Assembly (NCBI RefSeq): GCF_964355755.1
Contig: NC_092672.1
Location: 3,596,001-3,660,000 of the forward strand
Source: Antedon mediterranea
Lineage: Eukaryota > Animalia > Echinodermata
Direction of reading: 5' to 3'
DNA length: 64,000 nucleotides
This document shows, one piece after another, positions 11,591-50,075 of this stretch (its first letter is position 1; every line of letters begins with the position of its first letter). Below the pieces are notes generated by a model. That model had not been told where the DNA came from. It ran no database searches and worked only from the letters and a program-made list of their open reading frames with translations. Made by a program: the position numbers and the translations under genes.

Positions 11591-11729
11591 TTATAATGTA
11601 TTTATTCAAATTGAATGTAATTTATTCACTACATTAATAATTGCTCTTTGAATTTGGCAGCATTAAAAGACGTTCTCGGATTGTACCTTTTGATTGGTTT
11701 CCCTTCCATTTCTTTAGCCACTCGTTTTC

Positions 11730-12083
11730 TATGGGGCGCCATAAGCAGCAAAAGTGTGTAGCTGAAAAATGTATGTGTACATTTAAAATGTGTGTGTGTG
11801 TAATTGCAAAATGTATTTGTAAACCTAAAAATGTGTGTGTATTTGTAAAATTCATGTTTGTAATTGTAAAACGTAGTTGTACATTTGTAAAATGTAGTTG
11901 TACACTTTTAAAATGTAGTTGTACACTTTTAAAATGTAGTTGTACACTTTTAAAATGTAGTTGTAACAAGGAATGTATACTTGTAACGCTTGGTTAGAGA
12001 TCTCTAATCAAGCGTGAAGACCATACCATTTCTCGAGAGGGGTATACCATGGAAAATGGCTATCTGACCGGCGGCCGGCCGCC
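11730..12083 (+). repeat. Left TIR of the giant element
   Basis: Near-perfect reverse complement of the right TIR for ~310 bp, imperfect to ~350 bp; built from ~21-bp AAAATGTAGTTGTACACTTTT-like units, with one more unit than the right TIR. Confidence 0.92.
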
Positions 12084-13357
12084 GATGGTATATTTATTTC
12101 CTTTTTATCGTTATAGCATTGGCGTTTTGGGAGTTTTGATTATATTGAAAAGCGACGGCGAAACACTGTTGTCGGTCGTCTACTAAATTATATAATAACT
12201 AGGCCTAGGCGCGGCCGGACTATACTAAATCACTAAGGGTGGTAGGTATGTATAACAATACAATATTTAGGCTAGGCCTAGGCCCTAGACCTCGCGCCTA
12301 TAAATAAAGACCCAATTCCGTTATTAAAAGAAAAGAATGAAACAGCTAGCCTACTAGTAACGGGAGTAACTACTACTACTAGGCCTAGCCTAGCTAGGCT
12401 ATACTAGGCATAGAGGCCTAGCCTGTGTAGTATAGTAGAAGTAGGGCCCGGGCCTAGACCTAAACCTAGGCTAGGCTAGCTAGGCCTAAGCCTACTAGCC
12501 AGTAGGCCTAAAGCCCTGGGCCTAAATAGGGCTAGGCTTATATAGGCTAGCTCTCAATCAAGGAGCCTACTATTACTAAACTAACCAAAGACCTCTAACT
12601 AGGCTTATGGGGTGCTGGTCAACCCGTACCCAAACCAACCCGTACCCATGCCAACTCGTACCCAACTTGGCTAACCCGTACCCAAATAATTGGTCAACTC
12701 GTACCCACTTTGGCTAACCCGTACCCAAACCAACTCGTACCCATGCCAACTCATACCTAAATATTTGGCTTACTCGTACCCATTATTTGGCTTACTCGTA
12801 CCCATTATTTGGCTTACTCGTACCCATTATTTGGACTACTCGTACCCAATTTGAATAATTAGGCCTACTTGTAATGATTTGATCGGCGCAAAACTAGTGG
12901 TATGCTTTTGACGTATGAATATTTTTATATTTAAATTGTTTTTTTTTATTTTACAGGTCTCGGTGAAATGTGTGCTAATAAAAATGACCATTGATTTGAT
13001 TGTAAACTTCGTTTAATTAGGCATATATTTGTTAACATTTATTTAAATGTAGTATTATAGTTTTATAAACGTATGTTTGATGTGTCTTTTTATTTATTTA
13101 CGTAAGAACATTAATTAATAAAAAAATATTTTTACTGTTGTATAGTATTACAATTCAATTAAGCCCAGGTAAAGTACCAACAACGTATCATTTTTATACT
13201 TATCAATTTTTATTCTTATCACCTTATCTTCCCTGATTACATTCGATCATGGAGAGGTATACCTCCATGATTCGATCAAGTAATTATTGTTTCTATTGTA
13301 TTGGTATATTTAAAATTGGTTGAATTAACGACGCCCTGTTTTAATCAAAAAGCCCAC

Positions 13358-15510
13358 AGGGCTATGGAGTCGAATTACTCATAGATTTCGTGTTACGTGT
13401 TTTTGCTGACCGGGATTAACCTTTTATTATAAAAAAAAAATGACGTATGATCGTTTTCCATAATTTATTTATTAATAATTCAGTGAAATGATCATGTACA
13501 CTTACTGTAAAGTCTGCAGGGCTATGGGCGTAGATTTCGTGTTACGTGTTTTTGCTGACCGGGATTAACCTTTTATTATAAAAAAAACACGCATTTATAG
13601 GGCGTCAAAGAGATGACTCATTAATGACGTATATGATCGTTTTCCATATAATTTTATTTATTAATAATTCAGTGAAATGATCATATACACGTACTGTAAG
13701 GCCTGCAGGGCTATGGGGCGTAGATTTCGTGTTACGTGTTTTTGCTGACCGGGATTAACCTTTTATTACAAAAAAACACGCATTTATAGGGTGTCAAAGA
13801 GACGACTTAGTAATGGCGTATGATCGTTTTCCATATATTTTATTTATTAATAATTCAGTGAAATGATCATATACACGTACTGTAAGGCCTGCAGGGCTAT
13901 GGGGCGTAGATTTCGTGTTACGTGTTTTTGCTGACCGGGACTAACATTTTATTACAAAACATATGAATCTCTTGGTGCAAATTTTGCAACCAAACAGTGA
14001 TTTTTAATATGTACCTATTGAGCTGTTTATCTACTTATAAGTTCATACCAAGTTCATGCAACCCAAGTCTTGTCATCGTCCATTATATTGGGGGGTCAAC
14101 CATTATGAATACAACTAATTTCCACAATGATTTTATTATATTTTTTAACCAAAGAAATTAAAATGACATAAACTAGTATAGTATGAACATTTCCAGACTT
14201 TGTAATAATTACCATCTATTCATTAAACAAACCAAGTCACAGAAAGATAAACATAACCATTACCCGAATGAAAATGGTAGATCCCAGCTCGCTATCATTA
14301 AAACATAGGTGTCTTAATTTGGCAATTGTGAATATAAAACACGACATATAGAACTAAATAACACCTAACAATTGTTCCTTATATATCAAACATTAGAATG
14401 ATATAAAAATTAAAATGCTACTTACAATTATATAATGAAAAAATTAACCCCAAACTTCGCTACAATCCAACGGTCTGTCAAGTGAAGACTTGATAACACA
14501 GGCAAACCCTATTTGAATTTTGCCGCCTTTTTGAGCATTTTTTTAGATTTTTTCAAAATAGATTTTGCTATTTTGACACAGTCTATTTTAAGCCAATGCT
14601 CATAAGAAAAGTATGTAAGGAATCTATGAATATTCAGCTTTCTTTTAAGAAACTATCCAAAATGATTGATGGCCTACAAGTGATCTTAAATTGCAAATAA
14701 AACACTGTGGTGCTTTAGAAAATAGGTAAAAAATTGACCTCACACTGTCAGCGGGCAATGGATGGTGAGTTTTAAAACGTAAAATGACACATACTTTTTG
14801 TAACTTTACAATTTCAAACATATATCATAATGTTCAGTATTGTCTACAGTTTATTTTGAGCTACTATCCAAAAAAATCCGATTTATAATAGCCGAGATAT
14901 TTAGGTGGGAACATGAAAATCAAGTGTTTTGTAGAATATCACGATGCGAAATCAGTGGTATCCATGTCCCAGTGGAGTGTGTTGGGGCAATTTAGCTATT
15001 TCGTTGCTCAAGAGATTCATATGAACACGCATTTATAGGGTGTCAAAGAGACGACTTAGTAATGGCGTATGATCGTTTTCCATATATTTTATTTATTAAT
15101 AATTCAGTGAAATGATCATATACACGTACTGTAAGGCCTGCAGGGCTATGGGGCGTAGATTTCGTGTTACGTGTTTTTGCTGACCGGGATTAACCTTTTA
15201 TTACAAACAAACACGCATTTATATGGTGTCAAAGAGACGACTTAGTAATGGCGTATGATCGTTTTCCATATATTTTATTTATTAATAATTCAGTGAAATG
15301 ATCATATACACGTACTGTAAGGCCTGCGGGGCTATGGGGCGTAGATTTCGTGTTACGTGTTTTTGCTGACCGGGATTAACCTTTTATTACAAAAAAACAC
15401 GCATTTATAGGGCGTCAAAGAGACGACTCAGTAATGACGTATGATCGTTTTCCATATATTTTATTTATCAATAATTCAGTGAAATGATCATATACACGTA
15501 CTTTAAGGCA
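13358..15510. repeat. 186-bp tandem repeat (~6 units) split by a 1064-bp insertion
   Basis: Unit starts (C(A/G)GGGCTATGGGGCGTAGATTTCG) at 13706, 13892, 15141 and 15327: 186-bp period on both sides of the insert. Confidence 0.9.
13960..15023. mobile_element. Non-autonomous TIR element (1064 bp) inserted in an A-run of the 186-bp repeat
   Basis: Perfect 15-bp TIR CATATGAATCTCTTG / CAAGAGATTCATATG; the interrupted repeat unit resumes on the other side. TSD is absent or 2 bp (AA); superfamily unresolved. Confidence 0.8.
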
Positions 15511-16959
15511 ATTAAACATTTTTGGCAGATTTTCTTCTATAACAGCTACAGTGTGTAAAAAAAAAATAGACAACGCAATGTGGCGTACGATCGTTTTCTA
15601 TTTTTTTTTTTCTTAAATAATTCAGTAAAATTATCTGTTTGTTTACAGCAATTAAACATTTTTGGTAGATGTTTCCTCAATAACAGCTACGTGTTTTTGC
15701 TGACAAGGGATTCCCTTTTAAAAAAAAAAACGCATTCTATAATATTCTACAAATAAATGACCCACACTCGTTTTTCCATGGCAATTAACGGATGTCGTCT
15801 TATTTACTAAAATAATATAAACGTTCTGAAGGCCTACCTACACGTGTCTGTACATACGTATCTGTCAGCGATAAGATGATTTTTTTTTTAGTTTTAGTAG
15901 TATTTTATTTCGGTTTTTAGTCATAATAATACAGTAATAATCATTATAAAATGAAAACGTAATAACAGCAAATGTCGTCGTTAGTAATTAAATGTTAAAT
16001 TATTGGAGGTTACCTTTTATTATTATTCTCACATCCATCATGTCCTAGGGAATTTGTTTTAAAAACGGCAATAATCTACTTAGATTCATTATTCTAAAAT
16101 GGTCCTTAGCAGCAAAAATGAGGCTGGTATCCACTTAAATAGTTTCGTGATTTTAAAAATACGAGTGACTACTTAAAAATGTTTTCGAAATGTTAAAACA
16201 AAACTTGCAAAACAAAACAACAAAAACCATTTTTAAAACGATTTTCAAAAAGCACATTACTTCATTATCTGTAAAATAAAATGAAAAGTGTGTACAGGCT
16301 ATTCGTAGTAAATAATAGATCAATAACTATTCAAAAATGAAAAAAAAAATAGAATGCAGCACAGCCGACCACTGACATCTTCCATGTAAAACAACGCCCT
16401 CAAGTATTAATTTAACTACGACCCAAATACGATGAAAGCTGTGCTTTTTTCGTACGAGTCTGTACATAAATTATACTTAGGTAAATAGTTTTTGCCATTA
16501 TAATATCGAACATATGATCTAAAAATGTAATAAAACTGGGTTTAACTGTAATAGGCCTATATAAATATACTTTAAATAGCATTAAACTTGGGTACGGGCC
16601 AGCCAATGATGGGTACGGGTTAGCCAATGATGGGTACGGGTGAGCCAAAATTTTGGGTACGAGTAAGCCAAAATTTGGGTACGAGTTGGTGGGTACGAGT
16701 TGGCATGGGTACGGGTTGACCTGTATTCACCCGATGCCCACTAACTACTAAGCTAGCTAGGCTAGGCCTACCTCTTGCCTACCTAGCAGGCCTATAGGCT
16801 AGGTCTTTACTAGCTAGGCATTGTTAGCTATAGTAGGCAGGCCTAGACTACTAGGCCCTAGTCCTTCTACTACTAGCCTTCTAGGCTAGTAGGCTAGTAC
16901 TAGCCTATTATAATAAATATAGCCTCCCTGGAGACCATAGACTCGGGCCTAGTAGTAGG

Positions 16960-19065
16960 GGATCCATCGCAAAGTCGCCCCATACAAAGTCGCCCAATAC
17001 AAAGTCGCCCCATCGCAAAGTCGCCCCAAAACAAAGTCGCCCAGGCACAGTCGCCCCATCGCAAAGTCGCCCCATCGCAAAGTCGCCCCAGCGCAAAGTC
17101 GCCCCAGCGCAAAGTCGCCCCAGCGCAAAGTCGCCCCAACGCAAAGTCGCCCCATCGCAAAGTCGCCCCATCGCAAAGTCGCCCACGGTTTTATTTCGGT
17201 ATGATTATGAAGCGCCGCCGTAGTAGTACGCTGTTTCATATCGGTTGCGTTTGATATCGATTGCGTTTGTTACTTTGGTCGCGCTAAATGTCGTATAGGC
17301 CTACATTACAATGTTTATCCTATTATATACATAAAATTTTTATTTTACAGGTTTTAATGGAGTGATGTGCTTTTTAAAAATCATTAAAAAAATAGTCCCT
17401 TGTTTGAAAGTTCTAAAAAGATTATCCCTGATTTATAGTTTCGAAAATGTTAAATTAGTTACCAGAGCCACAATTACGAATCTTTCTTCAACCTACGCCT
17501 GGATACCAGCTCATTTTTTAGGATAATATAATAAATGTATAAATGTGTAGGCCTTCGTATAGATTTGTAAGACAATGAGTTGTAAAACAGTGTTGTAAGA
17601 CAATGAGTGTTATAGGCTACTTATTGATCATTTTGCATTTATTGACAAGTTATGTGTCTTACTTTTATAATGACTTTTCAAAATGAAGGGAAAAAAAAGG
17701 ATTTCATCGCCGATATGATTGTTTTACATGCATTACAGGTATTTTAGTAAAATTTAAAACGCTACATTTTGACCATGGAAAAACCATCGTACAGTATCGT
17801 GTGCGTGTTTTTTAAAAAGGGGAATCCCCGACGGTCAGCAGAAAGACGTAGCAGCTGTGAGGAAACAGATACCAGAAGGCGCAGCTCCGATTGGTTTCAG
17901 AGAATGTTTCAGATAGCGAGTCGCCTTTTATTCAACAGCACAATGATCATTTTACTGAAGAAATTCTTTTCAACCCTTTTGGTTTTAGAACATTCTAATT
18001 AACATGCCTAATAAATATCCTCATATCGGGTGTATATTTAATTTTAAATTAAACAAGACAGTGAAGAGGCACGGAATAATACGTACGACGAATACACACA
18101 CGCACGTCATTTACGACATATAGTGGTGATATGATGCAATTTTATAATTGATATAATGATGGGATTGCCTTTCCAGGCTTACAATCAATGTCCATTGTAA
18201 TACTATGTATAATAATAGTAAACTGAATGTTTATAAATAAATTGTTTTACGTAATTTGTTGCATATAAAATAAAAGACACAGACGCAGTCTACGTTTCCT
18301 ATAAAATATTTCACATTTAAATAATTATGTACTGTCAAATGACATTATGCTGGATAATACTATAATCTTAAACTATGTTTACAAATTGTCATTTTTTTAA
18401 CGCACACATCTTTCCCATCATACTGACCTGTAAAATAAAAACAAAAATCAATTATTAATATAGGCCTAATAATAACAATAAATATTCATCGACCAAAGCA
18501 AAAATAATCTAGATCGTATAACATCATTTTATCGCGACCAAAATTAAACGCGACCGATTTCGAACGCGACTGATATCATCGTAAAACTCCGGCGGGGTTT
18601 CCCCATCTTCAGAATGGTGCGTTGTAGTGCGACAACGGCGGAGTAATTACGGGGTTTCCCTCTGCTGGTAAGCTATAGCACGTTAGTGCGACCGCTGAGT
18701 GATTAGTCGGGGTTTCCACTCTGATGATGGGGGTGCGTGCCGATCGTGTGACCTGAGACTACATGGCGGGGCTTCCCCTTTTATGCCTACACGTTCCGTG
18801 TTATTTTGTGTATCATTGCGACATTTTACGCACTTGTAAACTATTTTTTAACGTTTTGGGCGACTTTGCGATAGGGCGACTTTGTGATGGGGCGACTTTG
18901 CGATGGGGCGACTTTGCGTTGGGGCGACTTTGCGATGGGGCGACTTTGCGATGGGGCGACTGTGTCGGGGCGACTTTGTTTTGGGGCGACTTTGCGATGG
19001 GGCGACTGTGTAAGGGGCGACTTTGTATGGGGCGACTTTGCGATGGGGCGACTTGACTAGCATCC
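16960..19065. mobile_element. Non-autonomous MULE-like element with AAAGTCGCCCC 16-bp subterminal arrays
   Basis: Array 16965-17185 is mirrored by GGGGCGACTTT array 18858-19054; GGAT../..ATCC termini; flanking duplication AGTAGTAG(G/T) at 16951-16959 and 19066-19074. Confidence 0.8.
18594..18777 (+). promoter_or_regulatory. Four regularly spaced NF-kappaB-like motifs
   Basis: GGGGTTTCCC (18594, 18651), GGGGTTTCCA (18709), GGGGCTTCCC (18768), spaced 57-59 bp; three match GGGRNWYYCC and the third differs at the last base. Function unproven. Confidence 0.4.
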
Positions 19066-19186
19066 AGTAGTAGTACTAGTAGGCCTACTAAAGGCCCTAG
19101 GCTAGCTAGCTAATAATAATTCTTATTTCAAATCAAATTTTAAGAATTAATTTGTACATATTTTTATTTCAGAACAGGCATTTACC

Positions 19187-20912
19187 ATGGATTTGCTGCA
19201 AATTTCAGAGAATTACCAGGAACTTTATGCCAGGCGCAAAGAGGTCTTATATCTGACAATATTAATGTGCTTGAAAACTGGCATCTTAGGATTGAGAAGT
19301 TAAACATTTTATTTAATATTGTTTTAAGAAGGTTACAAGAGAGTGATGTTCCTCTAGATACCATTGAACAATTTGTTATACTTTCTACTGAATTAAATTA
19401 TATTTTTGCCTCATATGATGAAAGAATAAACGGAAATCATGATCATCATAGGTGGTTTGCATCGCATCAAACTGAACAAACATCTAATGGGCGACCAAGG
19501 ATTATAGTTAATAAAGAGAATATTGAAGAACTATTTGAAATATTTCATAGTTGGAAAATTGTTGCACATCAATTAGCGATTTCTGTTGATACACTTCGAA
19601 GAAGAAGAAGATTATATGGTTTGCCCGTTTCCCAGCCTAACTCTACTAGAAACTACTATTCAAATATTTCAAGAGATCAGCTTTTAAATGAAGAATATTG
19701 ATTTTATTGCCTGATGCTGGAGAAAAATTAATTATTGGTGGATTAAGAAGAAGGCGTATACAGTACATGTTCAGAGAAGTCTAATTCGGGATGCTATAAT
19801 GGAGGTTGACCCAATCAATAGATCATTAAGGCGAACCAGATCTGTTATAAGAAGTTTACAATGTTGCAAGTCCAAATAGTTTATGGTAAGGATTACAGTA
19901 TACGGTAGATGTTTTTACTAACAATAATAAATACAGTATATTTAGCAGATTTAAAAAAAAGTATGAACTTTTTTAAGATGTGAATAATAAGTTGCCCATA
20001 ATACTTATTTGCATGAATTATTGTTGAGGTACTGTACATATAATTGATAAGAAAATATACACATGTAACATTAACAATGTACGTCAGTACAAAAAGTTTA
20101 TTATGCATGATTCAAGAGAGTAGCCAATTTGTTTTGTTTTACAGGCACATCGATGGCCATCATAAGTTAATTTGCTGGAACTTTGTCATATTAGGAGGCA
20201 TTGATGGATATTCACGCAAGATTGTTTATCTTAGATGTTGCACAAATAACAAAGCAGAGAGTGTTCTTCAGCTATTTCAAGAAGCTGTTGGACAGCATGG
20301 TTTACCATCACGAGTCAGATCTGATAAAGGAGGCGAGAATGTATTGGTGGCTCGCTTTATGTTAAGCAATAGAGGCTTAAATCGTGGCAGCCATATAACA
20401 GGTTCATCAGTTCACAATCAAAGAATTGAAAGGCTGTGGCTGGATGTCAAACAAACTGTTGTTAAACAATTTCAAGGTATATTTAACTACATGGAAAATT
20501 TGGGAATTCTTGATCCCTTAAACCAGATTCATATTTATTGCCTTCATTCGGTATTTTTAAGTCCCATTAATGATTCATTAAGAGAGATGGAAGGCAATTG
20601 GAATGACCATCCCATGAGTAGCGAACATAATCTTTCACCGAATCAACTTTGGCATATGGGATTAAATGCTTATGCATTTAACAATCCTGAAGAATATCAA
20701 GATCTAATTCACGATGGAATTGATGAAGATGGGCCACAAGCTGTTGATGACAACAATAATGAACAGATTGTTGTTCCATATATACAATTGCCATTAACCA
20801 ACAACCAAGACAATTTATTAAATCATATGCACTAGGTGCTAATAAAGCAGATGTTGACCAATGTATAGACATTTATGTCAATTTAGTTCATATAGTGGAA
20901 GGCATGATGTAA
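19187..20912 (+). pseudogene. IS3EU-type transposase (HTH + rve integrase-core DDE), two coding exons, frameshifted
   Basis: Exon 1: GRPRI..KENIEELFEIFHSWKIVAHQLAISVDTLRRR..YSNIS, then PDAGE..GL..RIHVQR..VDP..SPNSLW across frameshifts. GT-AG intron ~19886-20143. Exon 2: [37 protein letters not shown] (D-D-E intact). Confidence 0.85.
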
Positions 20913-26554: not shown

Positions 26555-26681
26555 GGTTTTATTTTTACAGTAGTTATCTGAAACAAAACAAATTATTATT
26601 AATAATTAAATTCATCAATACAGATACAGTACTGAATTAACTATCCTACTACACAGTACTAGTGGTGAAGCTCATATTTTG

Positions 26682-27094
26682 TTACCTCCGCCAAGGAGGT
26701 TATGTTTTCACCCCTGTATGTTTGGGTGCGTGGGTGCGCGTGTGTGGGTGTGTGTGTGTGTGTGTCTGTGAACAGCCTGAAGGCCACAGTTTTTATCCGA
26801 TTCCCACCAAATTTGGACACAATGATCTATGCCCCAAAAGCTCGGACGAAAAAAAAAATATATAAAAATAAAAAAAACTCTCAGCGGGATTTGAACCAGG
26901 GACCTTAACTGTGAGAGGCTGGATACATAACCATTACACCAAACTCTCATCCACAACTTTGTAGTGTGCAGTTAGCCTATTTACACTTTAGAACTAATAA
27001 AAAAAAAGTTAAAAAAAAAACATTTTCGGAGGGAATTTTATGTAGGGGAATTTTACAGTAGGCGGAGGTTTGTACTCTCGGAGTACCCTCTAGT
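26682..27094 (+). mobile_element. HINE-like element with (GT)n tract and an antisense tRNA-derived segment
   Basis: 5' TACCTCCGCCAAGGAGGT with 3' subterminal inverted GGCGGAGGT, 3' hairpin GTACTC-TCG-GAGTAC and CTAGTT end; minus strand 26886-26940 reads GGTGTAATGG...GGTTCAAATCCC (A/B boxes). Confidence 0.6.
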
Positions 27095-27379
27095 TTAGAT
27101 ATATTTTAAAAGATTATTCTACATTACAAGAAGAAGAATAGAATATCGCATTTTGTTATTTCAGTAGTAAAATATTGATTGTTTTACCCAGGTCTAGTAG
27201 GGCTAGCTTACAACTAGCTGGGCTACTACTACTAGGCTAGGCCATACCCTGCAGGTTTGGCTAGCCTAACACCAGCCCTACTGCTGTTATCAACTCCAAA
27301 TGTGTTATTACTAACTATATCATGAATAGCAAATCTTGGATTTAGGCTTTAAGTAGGCCTCATAAGTAGGCTCACGTCT

Positions 27380-30300: not shown

Positions 30301-30655
30301 GCCGATACATTGAATGTAAATAAATAAACAACGCACGTCCAGATTCGCGTATTTTCGGCGTCATATTTCGCCAGAAAAATATCGCGTTTAATTTTAATCC
30401 TCGTCGCCAATAAAGAGATTGCTAGTCTCTTGGTTTAGTTCCTTAACTACGATAAAAGACTACAACGTAAAATACTCACCATTATAATAGTCTTTGTATG
30501 ATAATAATGAGTGAGTAGTAATAATATAGGTTTAGTTTCCGTCGTCGACTTCTCAAGTGTCCCAAACGTACTTGACGTTCCAAGATACGCACGGCGGAGC
30601 GCGTCCAGGTGTTTAGAACGACGCGCTCCGCTTAAGCACTGTGTAGCGGCACTAC
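27380..30655. mobile_element. Young 3.3-kb non-autonomous element with Penelope-like inverted + direct terminal repeats
   Basis: 14-15-bp TSD (A)GTAGGCTCACGTCT (27365-27379, 30656-30670); 174-bp inverted repeat 27382-27555 / 30483-30656; 140-bp direct repeat 27561-27700 / 30439-30578. No RT, endonuclease or recombinase visible. Confidence 0.75.
27604..30482 (-). CDS. Spliced unknown ORF(s) of the 3.3-kb element: ATG exon ending 30480, intron 30479-29019, ORF-A 29018-28416, overlapping ORF-B 28419-27604 with a C2H2-like zinc finger
   Basis: ATG|GTGAGT donor and TTTGCAG|ATGTCT acceptor are in frame (MMSTERNQ..). ORF-B contains CPVAGCG-x8-HLAHH after a basic low-complexity region. The two frames overlap by 4 nt, so they may be one frameshifted gene. 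Confidence 0.55.
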
Positions 30656-32499
30656 AGTAGGCTCACGTCTGACCCTTATAAAATGTATAAACAAATAAAT
30701 CCTTTTTTAAATTGATGACAGGTACAGTAAACACTGACACTTAAGCTGCGTGATGTAGGCCTAGGCATTTATTAGCTAGTTTATGCGGTTTGCCTAGTTA
30801 GGCCTAGGCGGCGCCTATATAATAGGCCTATGCCTCTTGGCCTACTAGTAGACTAGCTAGGCTAGCTAGTCCCTGTACTGTTGTAGCTGTACTAGGCTAG
30901 GCCTAGTAGTAGGCCCTATACTGGTTTACAGCTCTAAGGAATGGGCTACTTACATACTGTACTGTATACTGTACTCAACAATAGGATGACACTGACAGTT
31001 GACTATAGTATAGATAGCAGGTATAGTATGTAGTTGTTTTTTGATAACAGAGAACTATCACTTATGCCATCCTCGTATATAATTAATTTCGTACGGAAAA
31101 TACATTTAATTGATTTTATCATTAGATAGAGTATCATTCTTAGAATTAATTGTCAGTAATATATATAATTTTTTAAATGTTAGGGATATATTTTAAAATA
31201 ACTATAAATAGATATATAATTACAGAAACTCAAGATGTTCTTTTCTGCCTGAAACCTAGGCCGAGGAGGAGGCCTCCTCCTCCTCAGCTCTCTGCTCTCA
31301 CTTCGTTCGTTTCGCTACCTGATCCGTGCAGGCCTAGGCCTAGGCTAGACTGGATATTATGATTGCAAGCCAAAAAGGTAGATTTAGAAGCATATTTTAT
31401 TGATTACCCATCATCAGTGTCACCCTTAAACAGATAGTTAAGCTATATTTGTAGGTCATAGCTTATTTCAGACAATATTTTAGCCTCCAAAAAGGGCAGA
31501 TTAGGTCTAGTAGGGTAGTGGAGGGCAGGCCTATAGCCTATAGGCTAGCCTAGTCTAGGCCTAGCTAGCTAGCTAGGGCCTAGGCCTAGTTAGGCTAGCA
31601 TCTCTCTACTCTAGCTAATAGTTTAGGCCTAAAAACTAGGTAGGCCTAGTACTACTAGGCCTACTATGGCTAGCCTTGTCTAGCTAGGCCTAGGCCTACT
31701 AGAAATAGAAAGATCTAGCCTAGCTAGAGTAGTAGGCTAGGCTAGTAGGCCCACCTGGTTAGGCCCTACTAGGGAACTGGTAGGCTAGCTAGCTAGGCCT
31801 ACTTACTAGCTAATAAGTAGCTAGGCCTAGGCTGCCTAACTAGCTAGCTCTATGTATTCTAGTTAGGGCCTAGACTAGTTTATTAGGCCTTAGTTTAGGC
31901 TGATTAGGCCTGCCTAGTCCTAGTTAAATAAATAGGCATATAACCAGGCTCAGTCTAAACACTCTAGCTAGGCCTATCTATATGAGACCTGTGCTATTAA
32001 TTATAGAACTAGGCCTAGGGCCTTGCTACTGTAGCTAGCCAGCAGAATGGTCTAGAGAGGCATAGGCCTAGCTAGGGATAGGCTGGGGGGTCATAGACAG
32101 CCTATCTATATAAAATATTAGATAGGTAGGTAGGAGTATTAAGATTCATCAGTGTGTAAGTTGATTTCATTGCTAATGCCAAGGTATTAGGCCTGTTTAT
32201 TTTCAGGTTGAAAGCAATGGATAAACAGAGATTCAATTCTACAACAAAAGAGACAAAAGTCAAACTCAAACTGATAATTAACAATGTTTCCAGTTAAATT
32301 AATGTTAATTATTTTAATAGATTGTAGTGACCCTAACTACCTTACTGTTTGTGTATGGCTGTAATATTATATTAAATGTCATCACAATTAGTAAGGTTGT
32401 GAGGCTTCACAATTTCAAACAACTCTTCTTGTGTCTCTTCTTCATGTGGATGGATTAAAAAATACTGTGAGTATTGTACACTCTTTATATGAATATATC

Positions 32500-35040
32500 A
32501 TCAATCACAATATCAAATATGATCCGTGTAGTAACAATTTGATAACTTAGCATGCATCTTATAATATCTACATCATCAATAATTAATATTAATATAAATC
32601 TACATCACAATGTTGGATATGATCTTTGTAGTCAAAATTTGATAACTGAGCACACATCTTTTAATAACTACCTTATCAATAACTATTAATAATGTCCTAT
32701 ATCACAATGTAGGATATGATCAGTGTTAGTCATAATTTGATAACTGAGCACGCATCTTTTAATATCTACCTCATCAATAATTAATATTAATATCATAATA
32801 TATCACATTGTTCGATATGATCAGTGTAGTCAGAATTTGATAACTGAGCACGCATCTTTTAATATATACCTTATCAATGACTATTAATAATATCCTATAT
32901 CACAATGTTGGATATGATTAGTGTAGTCATAATTTGATAACTGAGCACACATCTTTCAATATCTATTTCCTTCATCAATAATTATTATTAATAATTTATA
33001 TCACATTGTTGGATATGATCATTGTAGTCATAATTTGATAACTGAGCACGCATCTTTTAATATCTACCTCATCAATAATTAATATTAATAATCTATATCA
33101 CATTGTTCGATATGATCAGTGTAGTCATAATTTAATAACAGCACGCATCTTTTAATATACCTTATCAATAACTATTAATAATATCCTATATCACAATGTT
33201 GGATATGATCAGTGTAGTCATAATTTTATAACTGAGCACCCATCTTTCAATATCTATTTCATCAATAATTATTATTAATAATCTATATCACATTGTTGGT
33301 TATGATCAGTGTAGTCATAATTTGATAACTGAGCAATAATCTTTTAATATCTACATCATCATTAATTAATATTAATAACCTATATCACATTGTTGGATAT
33401 GATCTGTTTAGTTTTTTAATATATACCTTATCAATAACTATTAATAATATATTATATCACGTTGGATATGATCAGTGTAGTCAGAATTTGATAACTGAGC
33501 ACGCATCTTTTAATATCTACCTCATCAATAATTATTATTAATATCTTATATCACATTGTTCGATAATGATCAGTGTAGTCAGAATTTGATAACTGAGCAC
33601 GCATCTTTTAATATCTACCTCATCAATAATTAATATTAATAATCTATATCACATTGTTCGACATGATCAGTGTAGTCATAATTTGATAACTGAGCACGCG
33701 TCTTTTAATATCTACCTTTCAATAATTATTATTAATAATCTATATCACATTGTTGGATATGATCAGTGTAGTCAGAATTTGATAACTGAGCATGCATCTT
33801 TTAATATCTACCTCATCAATAATTAATATTAATAATCTATATTGCATTGTTCAATATGATCAGTGTAGTCATAATATGATAACTGAGCATACATCTTTTA
33901 ATATCTACCTTATCAATGACTATTAATAATATCCTATATCACAATGTTGGATATGATCAGTGTAGTCATAATTTGATAACTGAGCACGCATCTTTCAATA
34001 TCTATTTCATCAATAATTATTATTAATAATTTATATCACAATGTTGGATATGATCATTGTAGTCATAATTTGATAACTGAGCATACATCTTTAGAATTAC
34101 TTTTATTTAAGTATATAAAAGAATAATCTATAATTTACAATGTTTTATATATTGTGAATTCATCAGATATTATCTATTGAACTGATATGGTTTTGTTTAT
34201 TACAGCATAGTACATACAGCACTTTATGTTATGTTATTTATTTATTATTCAACATTTTTTGTTTGGTTTTTGACGTTATCAAATTTTTATTTTCTTTTAA
34301 GTTCTGTTATTCATTTGTTAATTTCGTAGCTTAAGTTAGTTTAAGATAAAAGGTACCAAGCTTGATTAGCTTCGGCTATACCTTGGCTACCTTTTGTATT
34401 GAAATTGTTTTTGTTTGATACAATAAAAAAGAAGAATATCTACCTCATTAATAATTAATATTAATAATCTATATTACACTGTTGGATATGATCTGTTTGG
34501 TTTTTTAATATCTACCTTATCAATAACTATTAATAATATCCTATATCACAATGTTGGATATGATCAGTGTAGTCATAGTTTGATAACTGAGCATGCATCT
34601 TTTAATATCTACCTCATCAATAATTATTATTAATAATCTATATCACAATGTTGGATATGATTAGTGTAGTCATAATTTGATAACTGAGCATGCATCTTTC
34701 AATATCTATTTCATCAATAATTATTATTAATAATCTATATCACATAGTTGGATATGATCAGTGTAGTCATAAATTGATAACTGAGCAAAAATCTTTTAAT
34801 ATCTGCATCATCATTAATTAATATTAATAATCTATATCAAACTGTTGGATATGATCTGTTTAGTTTTTTAATATCTATCTTTTCCATAACTATTAATAAT
34901 ATTCTATATCACAATTTTGGATATGATCAGTGTAATCATAGTTTGAACTACCTCAACAATAATTAATATTAATTGTCTATATACCAATATCAAATATGAT
35001 CAGTGTAGGCCTAGTCATTTGATAACTGAGCATGCATCAT
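32500..35040 (+). repeat. 97-bp satellite, left array (~22 diverged units, interrupted at ~34090-34435)
   Basis: Unit GATCAGTGTAGTCATAATTTGATAACTGAGCACGCATCTTTTAATATCTACCTCATCAATAATT...; reverse complement of the 38530-42890 array. Confidence 0.93.
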
Positions 35041-35139
35041 TTTATATCTGCTTCAAATATTAATATTGTCTTAATATATAATAAGTGGTTTGAAGGATGA
35101 TTGCAGATGGCCTTTTTTGCATTGTAAAGTTCAATTTAT

Positions 35140-37850
35140 CCAAAAGGTCAAACTTTGACCTATTTCAATAAAATCATTTCATAAGTTGTCTTCTTTTATA
35201 GTTTTAGTGATAATCAATATTAAGTGGTTTTTTACCCCAAAAATGTCAAACCTAGAGCTATTTAATAATAAAATGATTTTATAAATTGTCTTCTTTTATA
35301 TTTCTAGTAATGGTATAATCAGTATTCAATTGTTTGAATGATGTTTGTGAGGTATTTTTTAATTAAGTTTACGCAGTTTAGATGGTAAAATCTGTCAATT
35401 ATCCAAAATTGACATTTTTCACTCCTAAAAAAATCTTAGAGCCATTTCAATAAAATTATTTCATAAATTGTCCTCTTTTTATGGTTCTAATAATGATATA
35501 ATCAAAGTGGTTTGGATGATGTTTGTGGGGTGTTTTTTAAAAGTTTGCACAGTTTACATGGTAAAATGTGTCAATTTATTCCTAGAGCTATTTCAATAAA
35601 ATTATTTCATAATCACCCCAAAAATGTCAAACCTAGAACTATTTTAATAAAATGATTTCATAAATTGTCTTCTTTTATAGTTCTAGTAGTGGTATAATCA
35701 GTATTCAATTGTTTGAATGATGTTTGTGGGGTATTTTTTAATTAAGTTTACGCAGTTTACATGGTAAAATCTGTCAATTATCCAAAATTGACATTTTTCA
35801 CTCCTAAAAAAATCTTAGAGCCATTTCAATAAAATTATTTCATAAATTGTCCTCTTTTATAGTTCTAATAATGATATAATCAATATTAAGTGGTTTGGAT
35901 GATGTTTGTGGGGTGTTTTTTAAAAGTTTGCACAGTTGACATGGTAAAATGTGTCAATTTATACCTAGAACTATTTTAATAAAATGATTTCATAAATTGT
36001 CCTCTTTTATAGTTCTAGTAGTGGTATAATCAATATTAAGTTGTTTGGATGATGTTTGTGGGGTGTTTTTTTTTAAGTTTGCACAGTTTACATGGTAAAA
36101 TCTGTCAATTTATCCAAAATTGACATTTTTCACCCTAAAAAGTCAAACTTCAGAGCTATTTCAATAAATTGATTTCAAAAATTCTCTTTTTTTACAGTTC
36201 TAGTAGTGATATAATCAATATTAAGTTGTTTGAATGATGTTTGTGGGGTGTTTTTGTTAAGTTAGCATTAAGTTTACGCAGTTTACATGGCAAAATCTGT
36301 AAATTTATCCAAAATTGACATTTTTTACCCTAAAAATTCAAACCAGAGCTATTTCAATAAAGTTATTTCATAAATTGTCCTCTTTTATAGTTCTAGTAGT
36401 GGTATAATCAATATTAAGTTGTTTGGATGATGTTTGTAGGTGTTTTTTAAAAGTTTGCATTAAGTTTACGCAGTTTACATGGTAAAATCTGTAAATTTAT
36501 CCAAAATTGACATTTTTTACCCTAAAAATTCAAACCTAGAGCTATTTCAATAAAATTATTTCATAAATTGTCCTCTTTTATAGTTCTAGTAGTGGTATAC
36601 TCAATATTAAGTGGTTTGGATGATGTTTGTGGGGTGTTTTTTTAAAGTTTGCACAGTTTACATGGCAAAATCTGTAAATTTATCCAAAATTGACATCTTT
36701 TACCCTAAAAATTCAAACCTAGAGCTATTTCAATAAAATTATTTCATAAATTGTCCTCTTTTATAGTTCTTGTAGTGGTATAATCAATATTAAGTGGTTT
36801 GGATGATGTTTGTGGGTGTTTTTTTTAAAGTTTGCATTAAGTTTACGCTGTTTAAATGGTAAAATCTGTAAATTTATCCAAAATTGACATTTTTCACCCT
36901 AAAAAGTCAAACTTAGAGCTATTTCAATAAATTGATTTCATAAATTGTCCTCTTTTATAGTTCTAGTAGTGGTATAATCAATATTAAGTTGTTTGGATGA
37001 TGTTTGTGGGGTGTTTTTGTTAAGTTAGCATTAAGTTTACGCAGTTTACATGGTAAAATCTGTAAATTTATCCAAAATTGACATTTTTCACCCTAAAAAG
37101 TCAAACTTAGAGCTATTTCAATAAATTGATTTCAAAAATTCTCTTCTTTTACAGTTCTAGTAGTGATATAATCAATATTAAGTTGTTTGAATGATGTTTG
37201 TGGGGTGTTTTTGTTAAGTTAGCATTAAGTTTACGCAGTTTACATGGCAAAATCTGTAAATTTATCCAAAATTGACATTTTTTACCCTAAAAATTCAAAC
37301 CAGAGCTATTTCAATAAAATTATTTCATAAATTGTCCTCTTTTATAGTTCTAGTAGTGGTATAATCAATATTAAGTTGTTTGGATGATGTTTGTGGGTTT
37401 TTTTTTAAAGTTTGCATTAAGTTTACGCAGTTTACATGGTAAAATCTGTAAATTTATCCAAAATTGACATTTTTTACCCTAAAAATTCAAACCTAGAGCT
37501 ATTTCAATAAAATTATTTCATAAATTGTCCTCTTTTATAGTTCTAGTAGTGGTATACTCAATATTAAGTGGTTTGGATGATGTTTGTGGGGTGTTTTTTT
37601 AAAGTTTGCACAGTTTACATGGCAAAATCTGTAAATTTATCCAAAATTGACATCTTTTACCCTAAAAATTCAAACCTAGAGCTATTTCAATGAAATTATT
37701 TCATAAATTGTCCTCTTTTATAGTTCTTGTAGTGGTATAATCAATATTAAGTTGTTTGGATGATGTTTGTGGGTGTTTTTTTAAAGTTAGCATTAAGTTT
37801 ACGCAGTTTAAATAGTAAAATCTGTAAATTTATCCAAAATTGACATTTTA
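35140..37850 (+). repeat. 183-194-bp satellite (~14 units) with a 5-unit, 957-bp higher-order repeat
   Basis: AGAGCTATTTCAAT at about 36152, 36345, 36538, 36721, 36915, 37109, 37302, 37495, 37678; the variant pattern starting at 36152 recurs at 37109. Confidence 0.92.
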
Positions 37851-38529
37851 AAACACAAACTAGGTTGTAAAAAGTGAAGGAAATCATTACATTTTAATAT
37901 TGTTTGGTAATAAAGATGCCTATCATAGTCAAATGGCAATAACTGATTAGCCGAGACCAATGACATTTAAAACAACTCCTACTTAAAATTCCCTACTTAT
38001 ACAGTACAGCAGCTTTTTGATTGGCTGCAAGTTTAGTTTTCTGTTCGTTCATCAGAAATGGTATAAATAATTATTAATCAATAAGATTACTGGATTTCTT
38101 TAGTATTTCTGACACATTTCAAATCTTAATTGAATTATTAATGTAATGGAAATTTGTCATAGGCCTATTATAGCAACATATCATTTCTGGAAGAGTATTA
38201 CGGTCTGAATAGATCGATGTTAAAACACACGTCCTCATTTATCAAATTATTCATTCACTGCACATTTATTCTGTTAAGAAGAACTGGGACCCTCAATAGA
38301 AGCCAAAGCATGTCTCATGATGGCCCCTACAATACATATCAAACATAAAAAGATATGGAATATTTTTATTTTTACAACGGCACACGTTCATCATAAACGA
38401 TGCGTTCTTAAAAGTATAAATTTAAACAGCAAACGGATACAAATCAATAGGGTAATTAGGAACAAAAGAATAACACATTTTCAAAATCCATCGACTCGAT
38501 CTCTTGTATACAGTAAATCTAACAAAATC

Positions 38530-41500
38530 ACACTGATCATATCCAACATTAAGTATTAATAATTATTATTGATTAGGTAGATATTAAAAGATGCGTTATA
38601 ACAAATTATGAATATACAGATCATATCCAACAATGTGACATAGATTATTAATAATAATTATTGATGAGGTAGATATTTAAAGATGCGTGCTCAGTTATCA
38701 AATTATGACTACACTGATTATATCCACCAGTGTGATGTAGAGTATTAATAATATTATTGATGAAATAGATATTAAAAGATGCGTGCTCAGTTATCAAATT
38801 CTGACTACACTGATCATATCCAACAATGTGATATAAGATATTAATAACAATTATTGATGAGGTAGATATTGAAAGATGCGTGCTCAGTTATCAAATTCTG
38901 ACTACACTGATCATATCCAACAATGTGATATAAGATATTAATAATAATTATTGATGAGGTAGATATTAAAAGATGCGTGCTCAGTTATCAAATTATGACT
39001 ACACTGATCATATCCCACAATGTGATATAGATTATTATTAATAATTATTGATGATGTAGATATTTAAAGATGCGTGCTCAGTTATCAAATTCTGACTACA
39101 CTAATCGTATCCAACATTGTGATATAAGATCTTAATAATAATTATTGATGAGGTAGATATTTAAAGATGCGTGCTCAGTTATCAAATTATGACTACACTG
39201 ATCATATCCCACAATGTGATATAGATTATTATTAATAATTATTGATGATGTAGATATTTAAAGATGCGTGCTCAGTTATCAAATTATGACTACACTGATC
39301 ATATCAAACAATGTGATATAAGATATTAATAATAATTATTGATGATGTAGATATTGAAAGATGCGTGCTCAGTTATCAAATTATGACTACACTAATCATA
39401 TCCCAAAATGTGATATAGATTATTATTAATAATTATTGATGATGTAGATATTTAAAGATGCGTGCTCAGTTATCAAATTATGACTACACTGATTATATCC
39501 AACAATGTGATATAGATTATTAATAATAATTATTGATGAGGTAGATATTTAAAGATGCGTGCTCAGTTATCAAATTATGACTACACTGATCATATCCAAC
39601 AATGTGATTTAGATTATTAACAATAATTATTGATGAGGTAGATATTAAAAGATGCGTGCTCAGTTATCAAATTATGACTACACTGATCATATCAAACAAT
39701 GTGCTATAGATTATTAATAATAATTATTGATGAGGTAGATATTAAAAGATGCGTGCTCAGTTATCAAATTCTGACTACACTGATCATATCAAACAATGTG
39801 CTATAGATTATTAATAATAATTATTGATGAGGTAGATATTTAAAGATGCGTGCTCAGTTATCAAATTATGACTACACTGATCATATCAAACAATGTGCTA
39901 TAGATTATTAATAATAATTATTGATGAGGTAGATATTAAAAGATGCGTGCTCAGTTATCAAATTCTGACTACACTGATCATATCCAACAATGTGATATAA
40001 GATATTAATAATAATTATTGATGAGGTAGATATTAAAAGATGCGTGCTCAGTTATCAAATTCTGACTACACTGATCATATCAAACAATGTGATATAAGAT
40101 ATTAATAATAATTATTGATGATGTAGATATTGAAAGATGCGTGCTCAGTTATCAAATTATGACTACACTAATCATATCCCAAAATGTGATATAGATTATT
40201 ATTAATAATTATTGATGATGTAGATATTTAAAGATGCGTGCTCAGTTATCAAATTATGACTACACTGATTATATCCAACAATGTGATATAAGATATTAAT
40301 AATAATTATTGATGAGGTAGATATTAAAAGATGCGTGCTCAGTAATCAAATTATGACTACACTGATCATATCCAACAATGTGATTTAGATTATTAACATT
40401 AATTATTGATGAGGTAGATATTAAAAGGTGCGTGCTCAGTTATCAAATTATGACTACAATGATCATATCAAACAATGTGCTATAGATTATTAATAATAAT
40501 TATTGATGAGGTAGATATTAAAAGATGCGTGCTCAGTTATCAAATTCTGACTACAATGATCATATCCAACAATGTGATATAAGATATTAATAATAATTAT
40601 TGATGAGGTAGATATTAAAAGATGCGTGCTCAGTTATCAAATTCTGACTACACTGATCATATCAAACAATGTGATATAAGATATTAATAATAATTATTGA
40701 TGATGTAGATATTGAAAGATGCGTGCTCAGTTATCAAATTATGACTACACTAATCATATCCCAAAATGTGATATAGATTATTATTAATAATTATTGATGA
40801 TGTAGATATTTAAAGATGCGTGCTCAGTTATCAAATTATGACTACACTGATTATATCCAACAATGTGATATAGATTATTAATAATAATTATTGATGAGGT
40901 AGATATTTAAAGATGCGTGCTCAGTTATCAAATTATGACTACACTGATCATATCCAACAATGTGATTTAGATTATTAACATTAATTATTGATGAGGTAGA
41001 TATTAAAAGATGCGTGCTCAGTTATCAAATTATGACTACACTGATCATATCAAACAATGTGCTATAGATTATTAATAATAATTATTGATGAGGTAGATAT
41101 TAAAGATGCATGCTCAGTTATCAAATTCTGACTACACTGATCATATCAAACAATGTGCTATAGATTATTAATAATAATTATTGATGAGGTAGATATTTAA
41201 AGATGCGTGCTCAGTTATCAAATTATGACTACACTGATCATATCAAACAATGTGCTATAGATTATTAATAATAATTATTGATGAGGTAGATATTAAAAGA
41301 TGCGTGCTCAGTTATCAAATTCTGACTACACTGATCATATCCAACAATGTGATATAAGATATTAATAATAATTATTGATGAGGTAGATATTAAAAGATGC
41401 GTGCTCAGTTATCAAATTCTGACTACACTGATCATATCGAACAATGTGATATATGATATTATTAATAATTATTGATTAGGTGGATATTTAAAGATGCGTG

Positions 41501-42890
41501 CTCAGTTATCAAATTATGACTACACTGATCATATCCAAAAATGTGATATAGATTATTATTAATAATTATTGATGATGTAGATATTTAAAGATGCGTGCTC
41601 AGTTATCAAATTATGACTACACTGATCATATCAAACAATGTGCTATAGATAATTAATAATAATTATTGATGAGGTAGATATTAAAAGATGCGTGCTCAGT
41701 TATCAAATTATGACTACACTGATTATATCCAACAATGTGATATAGATTATTAATAATAATTATTGATGAGGTAAGATATTTAAAGATGCGTGCTCAGTTA
41801 TCAAATTCTGACTACACTGATCATATCCAACAATGTGATATAAGATATTAATAATAATTATTGATGAGGTAGATATTAAAAGATGCGTGCTCAGTTATCA
41901 AATTATGACTACACTGATCATATCCCAAAATGTGATATAGATTATTATTAATAATTATTGATGATGTAGATATTTAAAGATGCGTGCTCAGTTATCAAAT
42001 TATGACTACACTGATCATATCCAACAATGTGATATAAGATATTAATAATAATTATTGATGAGGTAGATATTAAAAGATGCGTGCTCAGTAATCAAATTAT
42101 GACTACACTGATCATATCCAACCATGTGATTTAGATTATTAACATTAATTATTGATGAGGTAGATATTAAAAGGTGCGTGCTCAGTTATCAAATTATGAC
42201 TACAATGATCATATCAAACAATGTGCTATAGATTATTAATAATAATTATTGATGAGGTAAACATTTAAAGATGCGTGCTCAGTTATCAAATTATGACTAC
42301 ACTGATCATATCCAACAATGTGATATAAGATATTAATAATAATTATTGATGAGGTAGATATTAAAAGATGCGTGCTCAGTTATCAAATTCTGACTACACT
42401 GATCATATCGCACAATGTGATATATTAGTAATAATTATTGATGAGGTAGATATTAAAAGATGCGTGCTCAGTTATCAAATTTTGACTACACTGATTATAT
42501 CGAACAATGTGATATAGATTATTAATAATAATTATTGATGAGGTAGATATTAAAAGATGCGTGCTCAGTTATCAAATTCTGACTACACTGATCATATCGC
42601 ACAATGTGATATAGATTATTAGTAATAATTATTGATGAGGTAGATATTAAAAGATGCGTGCTCAGTTATCAAATTTTGACTACACTGATTATATCGAACA
42701 ATGTGATATAGATTATTAATAATAATTATTGATGAGGTAGATATTAAAAGATGCGTGCTCAGTTATCAAATTATGACTACACTGATCATATCCAACAATC
42801 TGATATATGATATCAATGCTAATTATTGATGAGGTAGATATTAAAAGATGCGTGCTCAGTTATCAAATTGTAACTACACTGATCATAATA
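38530..42890 (-). repeat. 97-bp satellite, right array (~45 homogeneous units), inverted relative to the left array
   Basis: AGATGCGTGCTCAGTTATCAAATT.. at 38681, 38777, 38874, 38971 etc.; variant ACTAATCATATCCCAAAA recurs at 39391, 40167, 40749 (8 and 6 units apart). Confidence 0.96.
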
Positions 42891-43283
42891 CTGTACATAG
42901 TCCTTTATGCATTAGACATTGATTTAGTAGTACTACATATCATTTGTTATATTAAGAATGTTGTTTTAGTGTTATTAAAATACTTATCGAATTTTTTTGA
43001 AAATAAAAATATTAGTATTGGTACCTATAAATTTATATACTATAATAACATGCTAGATGTTATAATAATGTGATCTTTATTACAACTAAGAAACAGTTAT
43101 GTACGAGGATGATACACACTGATAGTTCTCAGTTATCAAAAAACGACTACACAATATAGCTCTAGATAGCCCTAATCAACGATTAAAAGAAGTATGGGTA
43201 TGCATTCCAGATTCCATCCAAACATGTGGTGCATGCTCGTCTCACTTGCTGAATACCATGAGGGTGCGTAGAGGTTATTCGCA

Positions 43284-43619
43284 GGCGGTGGCAGGCCGCC
43301 GGTCATCTAGCCATTCTAGACGATAAACCCCTTTCGAGAAATGGTATGGTCTTCACGCTTGATTAGAGATCTCTAACCAAGCGTTACAAGTGTACATTCC
43401 TTGTTACAACTACATTTTAAAAGTGTACAACTACATTTTAAAAGTTTACAACTACATTTTACAAATGTACAACTACGTTTTACAATTACAAACATGAATT
43501 TTACAAATACACACACATTTTTAGGTTTACAAATACATTTTGCAATTACACACACACACATTTTAAATGTACACATACATTTTTCAGCTACACACTTTTG
43601 CTGCTTATGGCGCCCCATA
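43284..43619 (-). repeat. Right TIR of the giant element
   Basis: Reverse complement of 11730-12083. Confidence 0.92.
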
Positions 43620-44001
43620 GTTTTCTGTACCAGAGGGTTCTGGGAAAGTGGGCGGTGCTACCAAAACTGGCCTCAGTTATAATTATATGGCTGCTCATGT
43701 ATAAACACATAGCACAGCAGACAATACTGGTCCTCCTAGATGGCGGTAAATTTCACCGTCAAAGTCTTCATCATTAGTTGTAATCAAGCAATCTGTTCGA
43801 CTGGTTGTACAGGTACTCAACTCTGATGAGTGCTCTGGTGCTTGTTTGGGATGATAAAACTTTTGTACACTTTTTTTCCAATCATTTGCTTTGCTAGTTT
43901 GTTGAGGGCACGCTGGTGCAGCCCACTATATGTACTGGGGGATGGATGCTCCAGACTGGGTAGCATCTAGTGCCCGGTTTGCGTTCCATCGAACAAATCC
44001 A

Positions 44002-48621: not shown

Positions 48622-50075
<1,454 letters not shown>

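What the first reader, a model, noticed from the sequence alone, without database searches (positions are those of the whole stretch)
11724..43625. 32-kb IS3EU-like giant transposon carrying a transposase plus a HECT-like ubiquitin ligase gene, inserted in an NLR cluster
Seen: near-identical long TIRs 31.9 kb apart, a perfect 6-bp TSD, an intron-containing rve-type transposase and a convergent three-exon second gene, with at least seven nested insertions. Both genes are decayed, yet the TIRs and TSD are almost pristine. Inference: a non-autonomous composite mobilised recently in trans with its nested cargo, i.e. a vehicle that can move satellites and other elements as one block. IS3EU is a poorly characterised family. 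Best candidate for an undescribed system here.
Basis: partly seen in the sequence, partly recalled or inferred. Interest (0 to 1): 0.85.

Follow-up and report, generated by a model that had tools for sequence, protein, structure and literature searches.

The report
IS3EU transposon with own ubiquitin ligase
This is a broken copy of an ordinary-sized (about 8 kb) jumping gene, swollen to 32 kb by other elements that likely landed in it afterwards, and its family carries a ubiquitin-ligase gene that is predicted to be active and likely helps the element against host silencing.

Summary
The anatomy is real: TATGG-ended TIRs, a perfect 6-bp TSD, a DD34E rva_4 transposase, a convergent three-exon HECT gene and eight nested insertions. 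It is an IS3EU/GingerRoot element, likely from a feather star (Antedon).

The 32-kb cargo vehicle is not supported. About 24 kb is nested. Other copies lack four insertions I could test (16.8 kb), and window-type variants sit at about single-locus depth. The TIRs (99.3% alike) are no fresher than the genes (99.7% to the dominant contigs).

Trans-mobilisation holds for the 8-kb backbone. Its main lesions recur in RefSeq models on at least five chromosomes, and an intact 491-aa transposase and 678-aa UBL-HECT ligase exist, probably side by side.

The HECT gene is a standard part of animal IS3EU, not local cargo. It is convergent in 21 of 28 informative loci, lies inside three complete TSD-flanked elements, and keeps its catalytic Cys in every sequence covering it. 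No held paper has IS3EU with HECT. This scan noted the pairing on three other genomes. What this locus adds is a young master/defective pair for testing the ligase.

The parts
11724..11729 (+). left target-site duplication GTTTTC
11730..12085 (+). left TIR (core to 12036, three 21-bp units)
12610..16732 (.). nested element 1, 4.1 kb, GGGTG..CACCC ends, subterminal repeats, 186-bp array
   Evidence: empty-form joins at depth 854 and 902 in run X3
13960..15023 (.). nested element 1a inside element 1, 15-bp perfect TIR
16959..19065 (.). nested element 2, 2.1 kb, 16-bp subterminal repeats, 8-bp TSD AGTAGTAG, very high copy
   Evidence: no empty-form join among the 15 of 263 joints shown
19187..20912 (+). 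IS3EU transposase pseudogene, exons 19187-19885 and 20145-20912; DD34E triad kept; about 5 frameshifts, 1 codon loss and 9 substitutions against intact P0122
21700..23515 (.). nested element(s) 3, high-copy, borders approximate; 22345-23484 is 63-73% like the tandem units at 58-63 kb
24612..26554 (-). ORF2 pseudogene (UBL, CUE-like motif, HECT in the intact form); stop at codon 189, residues 228-539 and 621-678 of P0131 missing, so no catalytic Cys
26019..26143 (.). nested element 4, 125 bp, in ORF2 intron 1 (Helentron-type short element by eye, label recalled)
   Evidence: empty-form join depth 970
26681..27092 (.). nested element 5, 412 bp (Helentron-type short element by eye, label recalled)
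   Evidence: empty-form join depth 1290
27380..30660 (-). nested element 6, 3.3 kb, 178-bp inverted ends, about 15-bp flanking direct repeat, two ORFs of no known family
31019..43161 (.). nested element 7, 12.1-kb foldback-like element: inverted 97-bp arrays, internal 194-bp array, 8-bp TSD TAGATAGC offset by one base
   Evidence: empty form in runs X3 and X5 (loose ends at 43163)
43286..43619 (-). right TIR (two 21-bp units)
43620..43625 (+). right target-site duplication GTTTTC

Best explanation
This is one defective copy of a young two-gene IS3EU/GingerRoot DNA transposon whose ~8-kb backbone was likely moved in trans by an intact master copy and then likely filled in place with ~24 kb of other elements. 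Shown: ends, TSD, DD34E transposase, shared lesions among copies, existence of intact proteins. Inferred: the transposase cuts at the TATGG TIRs and inserts with a 6-bp stagger. Inferred: a founder that had lost both the transposase frame and the ligase core was copied to at least five chromosomes by proteins made elsewhere. The second gene of the intact element encodes a ubiquitin-like domain, a CUE-like motif and a HECT domain with its catalytic cysteine, so it is predicted to be an active E3 working in trans. I put about 50% on its ubiquitinating host chromatin or silencing proteins to help the element be expressed or move, about 35% on its acting on the transposase, and the rest on no role. 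No substrate is shown.
For: Six >90% transposase models on six chromosome-size contigs, one full length. In the tree P0122 has branch 0 at the base of a 100/99 clade and the others, window included, radiate at 0.005-0.0095. Intact 678-aa ORF2 XP_071945650 follows transposase XP_071945648/9 in accession order on a contig of the same length. HECT by Pfam E=4e-10, E6AP alignment with C644 on the catalytic Cys, Foldseek 1e-13. N-terminal ubiquitin fold Z 7.7, rmsd 2.5 A over 80 residues. Convergent HECT in 21 of 28 loci with >=3 kb downstream, 16 of 21 clusters; same strand 1 of 28; reversed-ORF control 0 of 5,548. Three complete TATGG/TSD elements of 4.6-7.2 kb enclose both genes. Cys in 33 of 33 and 35 of 35 sequences covering it. 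Empty forms of four nested insertions and single-locus-like depth of window-type variants. HECT C-lobes diverge faster than transposase cores (27% against 55% mean identity) and track them weakly. Rust-fungal IS3EU carry an alpha-kinase opposite the transposase (PMC12730594, passage).
Against: Eight insertions in a backbone only 0.3% from the dominant contigs is a high rate, so some small ones may have been inherited from a parent copy. No empty-form join was shown for elements 2, 3 and 6 (15 of 263 joints displayed), and the empty-form depths for elements 4 and 5 account for only a third to a half of backbone depth. Contig depth is a rough measure, and X3 differs from the window in the right flank. 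Adjacency of the two intact genes rests on accession order only. The UBL Z-score is in the range the tool calls common. The CUE label is a motif read by eye. 7 of 28 loci lack a convergent HECT. No ligase activity or substrate was tested.
Confidence: 0.75

Rival explanations
1. The 32-kb composite moved as one block with its nested cargo.
For: Both TIRs and the TSD are intact, so it could still be a substrate. Eight insertions accumulated at only 0.3% backbone divergence. Both TIRs share a base (11852/43497) that most family depth lacks.
Against: Empty forms exist for 16.8 kb of the ~24 kb nested. Residual depth at 12558 is about 272 (2028 minus 854 minus 902) and the window-like contig of element 6 runs at 274, against 303 for a flank contig. 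TIRs are not younger than the genes.
Confidence: 0.1
2. Stepwise build-up: one or more small insertions (elements 2-5) were already in a parent copy and were carried to several loci, while the large ones came later.
For: Empty-form depths of 970 and 1290 are below backbone depth of 2,700-3,300; none was shown for elements 2 and 3.
Against: The joint table was cut, so missing joins say little; no shared junction was seen.
Confidence: 0.25
3. ORF2 acts on the transposase itself (turnover or disassembly after strand transfer), not on host proteins.
For: The two genes are co-inherited across the whole tree and nearest neighbours agree at shallow depth (Mantel rho 0.14, p 0.03). An earlier AI note on a sea-urchin element reports a docked model (e1-8148473, unchecked).
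Against: The correlation vanishes among the 301 pairs under 65% transposase identity (rho 0.05, p 0.37), and the ligase evolves much faster than the transposase.
Confidence: 0.35
4. The HECT gene is a host G2E3-like gene captured locally as a passenger.
For: Atlas names look-alikes G2E3-like fragments; GingerRoot elements capture gene fragments (PMC6839031, parts read).
Against: Same position and orientation in 16 of 21 transposase clusters, Cys invariant, a 57%-identical full-length relative in Anneissia japonica and a multi-copy set in Hydractinia.
Confidence: 0.04

Closest known systems
IS3EU/GingerRoot superfamily (Repbase; PMC10045372; PMC6839031)
   Same: TA..TA (here TATGG..CCATA) termini, 6-bp TSD, integrase-like DDE core, two proteins (two-protein statement cited from Kojima 2019 in PMC8232023). 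The core is about 70 of 98 positions identical to Repbase IS3EU-1_CVi, counted by hand from the supplement passage.
   Different: The second protein is identified here as UBL/HECT E3, which no held paper states. This copy is 32 kb only through nesting; GingerRoot elements are 3.9-12.9 kb.
Rust-fungal TET+ IS3EU (PMC12730594)
   Same: TAYGG..CCRTA ends, 6-bp TSD, a protein-modifying enzyme gene in opposite orientation to the transposase
   Different: alpha-kinase plus TET/JBP there; HECT ligase here
Cellular HECT E3s (E6AP, NEDD4; G2E3-like annotations)
   Same: bilobal HECT fold, catalytic Cys and C-terminal Phe in register
   Different: 15-18% identity; UBL N-terminus instead of WW, C2 or PHD domains (domain lists recalled); encoded within a transposon
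Zisupton transposons
   Same: a DNA transposon carrying a ubiquitin-system domain (F-box isoform, bioRxiv 2024.12.17.628972 passage; SUMO protease recalled)
   Different: unrelated transposase; domain fused rather than a separate convergent gene
Starship / Pack-type cargo elements
   Same: large size, foreign DNA between the ends
   Different: no evidence here that the extra DNA travels with the element

Membership tests
IS3EU/GingerRoot | TA..TA termini with TIRs | tested here: met
   TATGG..CCATA, 286-bp core
IS3EU/GingerRoot | 6-bp TSD | tested here: met
   GTTTTC on both sides
IS3EU/GingerRoot | integrase-like DDE transposase of this lineage | tested here: met
   Pfam rva_4 E=3e-71; D238, D295, E330; about 70% to IS3EU-1_CVi core by hand count
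IS3EU/GingerRoot | grouping with Repbase IS3EU in a tree that includes IS3/IS481 | not testable with these tools
   reference sequences could be read in the supplement but were not available to the alignment tools; the tree holds only session sequences
IS3EU/GingerRoot | two encoded proteins | tested here: met
IS3EU/GingerRoot | dispersed copies with different flanks | tested here: met
   loose ends at 43619 in 4 of 4 runs; models on six contigs
HECT E3 ligase (intact ORF2, P0131) | HECT domain sequence and fold | tested here: met
   Pfam 40 bits over cut-off 23.9; Foldseek 1e-13
HECT E3 ligase (intact ORF2, P0131) | catalytic Cys in the C-lobe | tested here: met
   C644 aligns to the E6AP catalytic motif; 33 of 33 and 35 of 35 relatives
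HECT E3 ligase (window copy) | complete HECT with catalytic Cys | tested here: not met
   residues 228-539 and 621-678 absent, stop at codon 189
HECT E3 ligase (intact ORF2, P0131) | thioester formation and substrate ubiquitination | not testable with these tools
   bench assay
cargo-mobilising giant transposon | same cargo at two or more insertion sites | tested here: inconclusive
   empty forms for 4 insertions and single-locus-like depth argue against; no genome was available to pair ends, and joint tables were cut

The most novel reading that the evidence does not exclude
Animal IS3EU transposons are a two-enzyme system whose second gene is an active UBL-HECT ubiquitin ligase that the element needs in trans to disarm host silencing or remodel its transposase; many multi-copy 'G2E3-like' gene models in invertebrates and fish are these ligases, and this Antedon family is a live master-plus-dependents system in which that can be tested.
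Probability: 0.55. Interest if true: 0.75.

Novelty: new variant of a known kind. Interest (0 to 1): 0.5.

Why it matters
A eukaryotic DNA transposon that keeps a separate, Cys-intact HECT ligase across cnidarians, crinoids and unnamed metagenome contigs would give a concrete function to the unexplained second IS3EU protein. It would add protein ubiquitination to the known tools of transposons. It would also mean that some expanded 'G2E3-like' ligase families in animal annotations are mobile-element genes. The 32-kb size itself matters little: it is nesting.

Tried and rejected
Complex prediction of transposase 1-400 with ORF2 82-678 gave no verdict (ipSAE 0.00 twice, alignments not used); it is not evidence either way.

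Empty site of the outer element: not seen. One organism-B contig matches the left flank up to 11730, but nothing tied it to the right flank. No reading frame crosses the site when the flanks are translated separately.

Long-read spanning: not testable, all four runs were short contigs. No whole genome was held, so TIRs could not be paired genome-wide.

Expression: no RNA holder listed. Run X5 is only guessed to be RNA; one of its contigs stops at the ORF2 exon-1 donor and another crosses the transposase intron, so I claim nothing. Organism-B runs had no cover on the transposase core at 88%, which is not proof of absence.

A word search with the HECT remnant found no candidates, and a PDB search with it gave one chance hit. 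Rfam found nothing in 11000-44000. Borders of element 3 were not resolved. Transposase-HECT co-divergence was weak.

Rejected: two independent TIR insertions (matched TSD and shared minority base), and the 97-bp array as a free satellite (its unit resembles the TIR of element 7).
Full report
Observation. The element runs 11730-43619 between two copies of GTTTTC and begins TATGG on both strands. The TIR core has 2 mismatches in 286 aligned bases plus one extra 21-bp unit on the left. Contigs from all four public runs laid on the right end leave the window at 43619 with different flanks, so this is the real family terminus. Both TIRs carry the same base at 11852/43497 where 85-100% of the laid depth has another, which fits one element rather than two chance insertions.

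Organism and context. The closest named proteins are RefSeq models of the crinoid Antedon mediterranea at 96-100% identity, so the window is likely from that species or a very close one. DED exons lie at 1.7-2.2 kb and 56.6-57.2 kb and a NACHT exon at 51.7-53.8 kb. The element is between them, inside other repeats.

Transposase. Two coding exons give a Pfam rva_4 protein with D238, D295 and E330 (DD34E, with E counted by hand). Its 90% cluster has 6 members on six contigs of different size; one, P0122 (491 aa), is full length. Against P0122 the window has about five frameshifts, one lost codon and nine substitutions. R245C is in the window and in 5 of 5 partial models; the Y426 loss is in 4 of 5, the fifth ending earlier. 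A dominant X3 contig spans the frameshift near 19690 without a gap (record 1), so that lesion is shared too. In a tree of 40 cores P0122 sits at the base of the clade with zero branch length and the others radiate from it.

Second gene. Its cluster has 10 members, 9 named. Six end at the same point as the window's frame after the internal deletion, on at least five contigs. One stops at the codon where the window has a stop. Two keep the HECT domain. P0131 (678 aa, XP_071945650) follows the full-length transposase (XP_071945648/9) in accession order on a contig of the same length; adjacency is inferred, not seen. P0131 matches Pfam HECT, aligns to E6AP with C644 on the catalytic cysteine motif and folds as HECT. 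Its N-terminal domain, modelled from P0129 with 8 sequences, is a ubiquitin-like beta-grasp (Z 7.7, rmsd 2.5 A, 80 residues; no Foldseek hit under 1e-3). A CUE-like MFP motif precedes the HECT (read by eye, label recalled). The window copy lacks residues 228-539 and 621-678, including the cysteine.

Is the ligase cargo or a part? With a profile built from P0131 and 11 Pfam-positive ORFs of these loci, 21 of the 28 loci with at least 3 kb downstream had a convergent HECT hit (15 not used as seeds). One of 28 had it on the same strand, 5 of 22 had a hit upstream, and reversed ORFs gave 0 of 5,548. After clustering at 80% the count is 16 of 21; many long loci come from one assembly. Pfam independently called HECT in 15 of 52 hand-picked ORFs and 12 of 15 C-lobe pieces. 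Of 28 loci scanned, three (L022, L034, L046; 6.8, 4.6, 7.2 kb) have TATGG TIRs and a perfect 6-bp TSD around both genes, and L063 has TIRs without a matching TSD. The cysteine is present in 33 of 33 locus hits and 35 of 35 of 149 representatives that cover it. Named relatives include a 57%-identical full-length protein of Anneissia japonica and a multi-copy set in Hydractinia; their genomic context was not seen. HECT-less loci are scattered on the tree, two being near-identical to HECT-bearing ones, as deletion derivatives would be.

Why 32 kb? Six nested blocks sum to 22.2 kb, and a seventh of about 1.8 kb leaves a backbone near 7.9 kb; element 1a is counted inside element 1. Run X3 holds contigs that join across element 1 (depth 854 and 902), element 4 (970) and element 5 (1290). 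X3 and X5 hold contigs in which the sequence left of 31019 directly precedes 43163, the empty form of the 12.1-kb element. Backbone contigs run at 2,700-3,300. Window-type residuals run at about 272 (position 12558), 274 (element 6) and 298 (TIR variant), close to a 1.2-kb flank contig at 303. The tool warns that summed contig depth is not copy number, only 15 of 263 joints were shown, and X3 differs from the window in the right flank, so this is rough. Backbone contigs differ from the window at 6 of 2,214 bases, matching the TIR-TIR difference, so there is no age gap between ends and genes. Against my reading, eight insertions at that divergence is many, and no empty form was displayed for elements 2, 3 and 6.

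Mechanism. Shown: ends, TSD, triad, shared lesions, intact proteins. Inferred: cut-and-paste by an intact master; trans-amplification of a founder lacking both activities, so neither gene is needed in cis; later nesting in place. The four large insertions sit in AGGCCT/CTAG-rich tracts upstream of the two start codons, which may be open promoter DNA (inference). The ligase is predicted active. I favour a host-facing role because it diverges faster than the transposase (27% against 55%) and tracks it weakly (rho 0.14; 0.05 among distant pairs), and because rust-fungal IS3EU hold a kinase in the same slot. Action on the transposase remains a strong rival.

Literature seen. PMC10045372: passages and supplement passages. 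PMC6839031: parts 2-4 of 7 and a term search. PMC12730594, PMC11934779, PMC8232023, bioRxiv 2021.09.26.461848 and 2024.12.17.628972: passages. Kojima's 2019 review was not held and is cited second-hand. Searches for IS3EU with HECT gave 0 papers; IS3EU with ubiquitin gave 2 unrelated listings; searches listed nothing on point by title and abstract start. Repbase Reports, subscription journals and bioRxiv supplements were not searchable and may already name this ORF. This scan noted the same pairing on three other genomes; my reading was recorded before I saw those notes.

Verdict. A real IS3EU copy of ordinary backbone size, not a demonstrated giant vehicle. The lasting interest is the family's ligase and a young master/defective pair in which to test it.

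Noticed in passing
window 27380-30660: Unclassified 3.3-kb element: 178-bp inverted ends (177 identical), an internal direct copy of one end, about 15-bp flanking direct repeat, two minus-strand ORFs without a significant Pfam hit; an X5 contig has about 1 kb more at 28421, and relatives occur in both organisms laid.
   Followed up: partly
window 31019-43161: Foldback-like element whose 97-bp arm repeat resembles its own TIR and has expanded to 45 copies on one side; encloses a 194-bp array.
   Followed up: partly
window 12180-12600, 16735-16960, 27180-27377, 30675-32100: AGGCCT/CTAG-rich tracts (CTAG about 30-70 per kb against 3.6 window-wide) upstream of both genes host the large insertions; a similar tract lies near 48280-48570.
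   Followed up: partly
window 43432-43619: An X3 contig of 579 bases at depth 1651 continues 391 bases past the TIR end; either many copies share one flank or the mean mixes a deep TIR with a single flank.
   Followed up: no
window 3700-5718: Uninterrupted 673-aa pogo-like transposase ORF (DDE_1, HTH_Tnp_Tc5) on the minus strand.
   Followed up: no
window 49230-50075: Broken exons resembling the C-terminal lobe of a SNF2-type helicase (read by eye), next to a 52-bp array.
   Followed up: no
window 44940-47600: Decayed LINE with endonuclease and reverse-transcriptase pieces, minus strand.
   Followed up: no
window 57978-62959: Three tandem 1.5-kb units, 86% alike, related at 63-73% to nested element 3.
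   Followed up: partly
window 24851-26554; P0126, P0127, P0133: Several defective copies keep an open 229-aa ORF2 holding the ubiquitin-like domain without the ligase; it could interfere with the intact protein or simply be young.
   Followed up: no
L077:13670-14774, L056:6911-8777, L026:1280-3067: HECT-like ORFs on the same strand as the transposase, an alternative arrangement or neighbouring elements.
   Followed up: no
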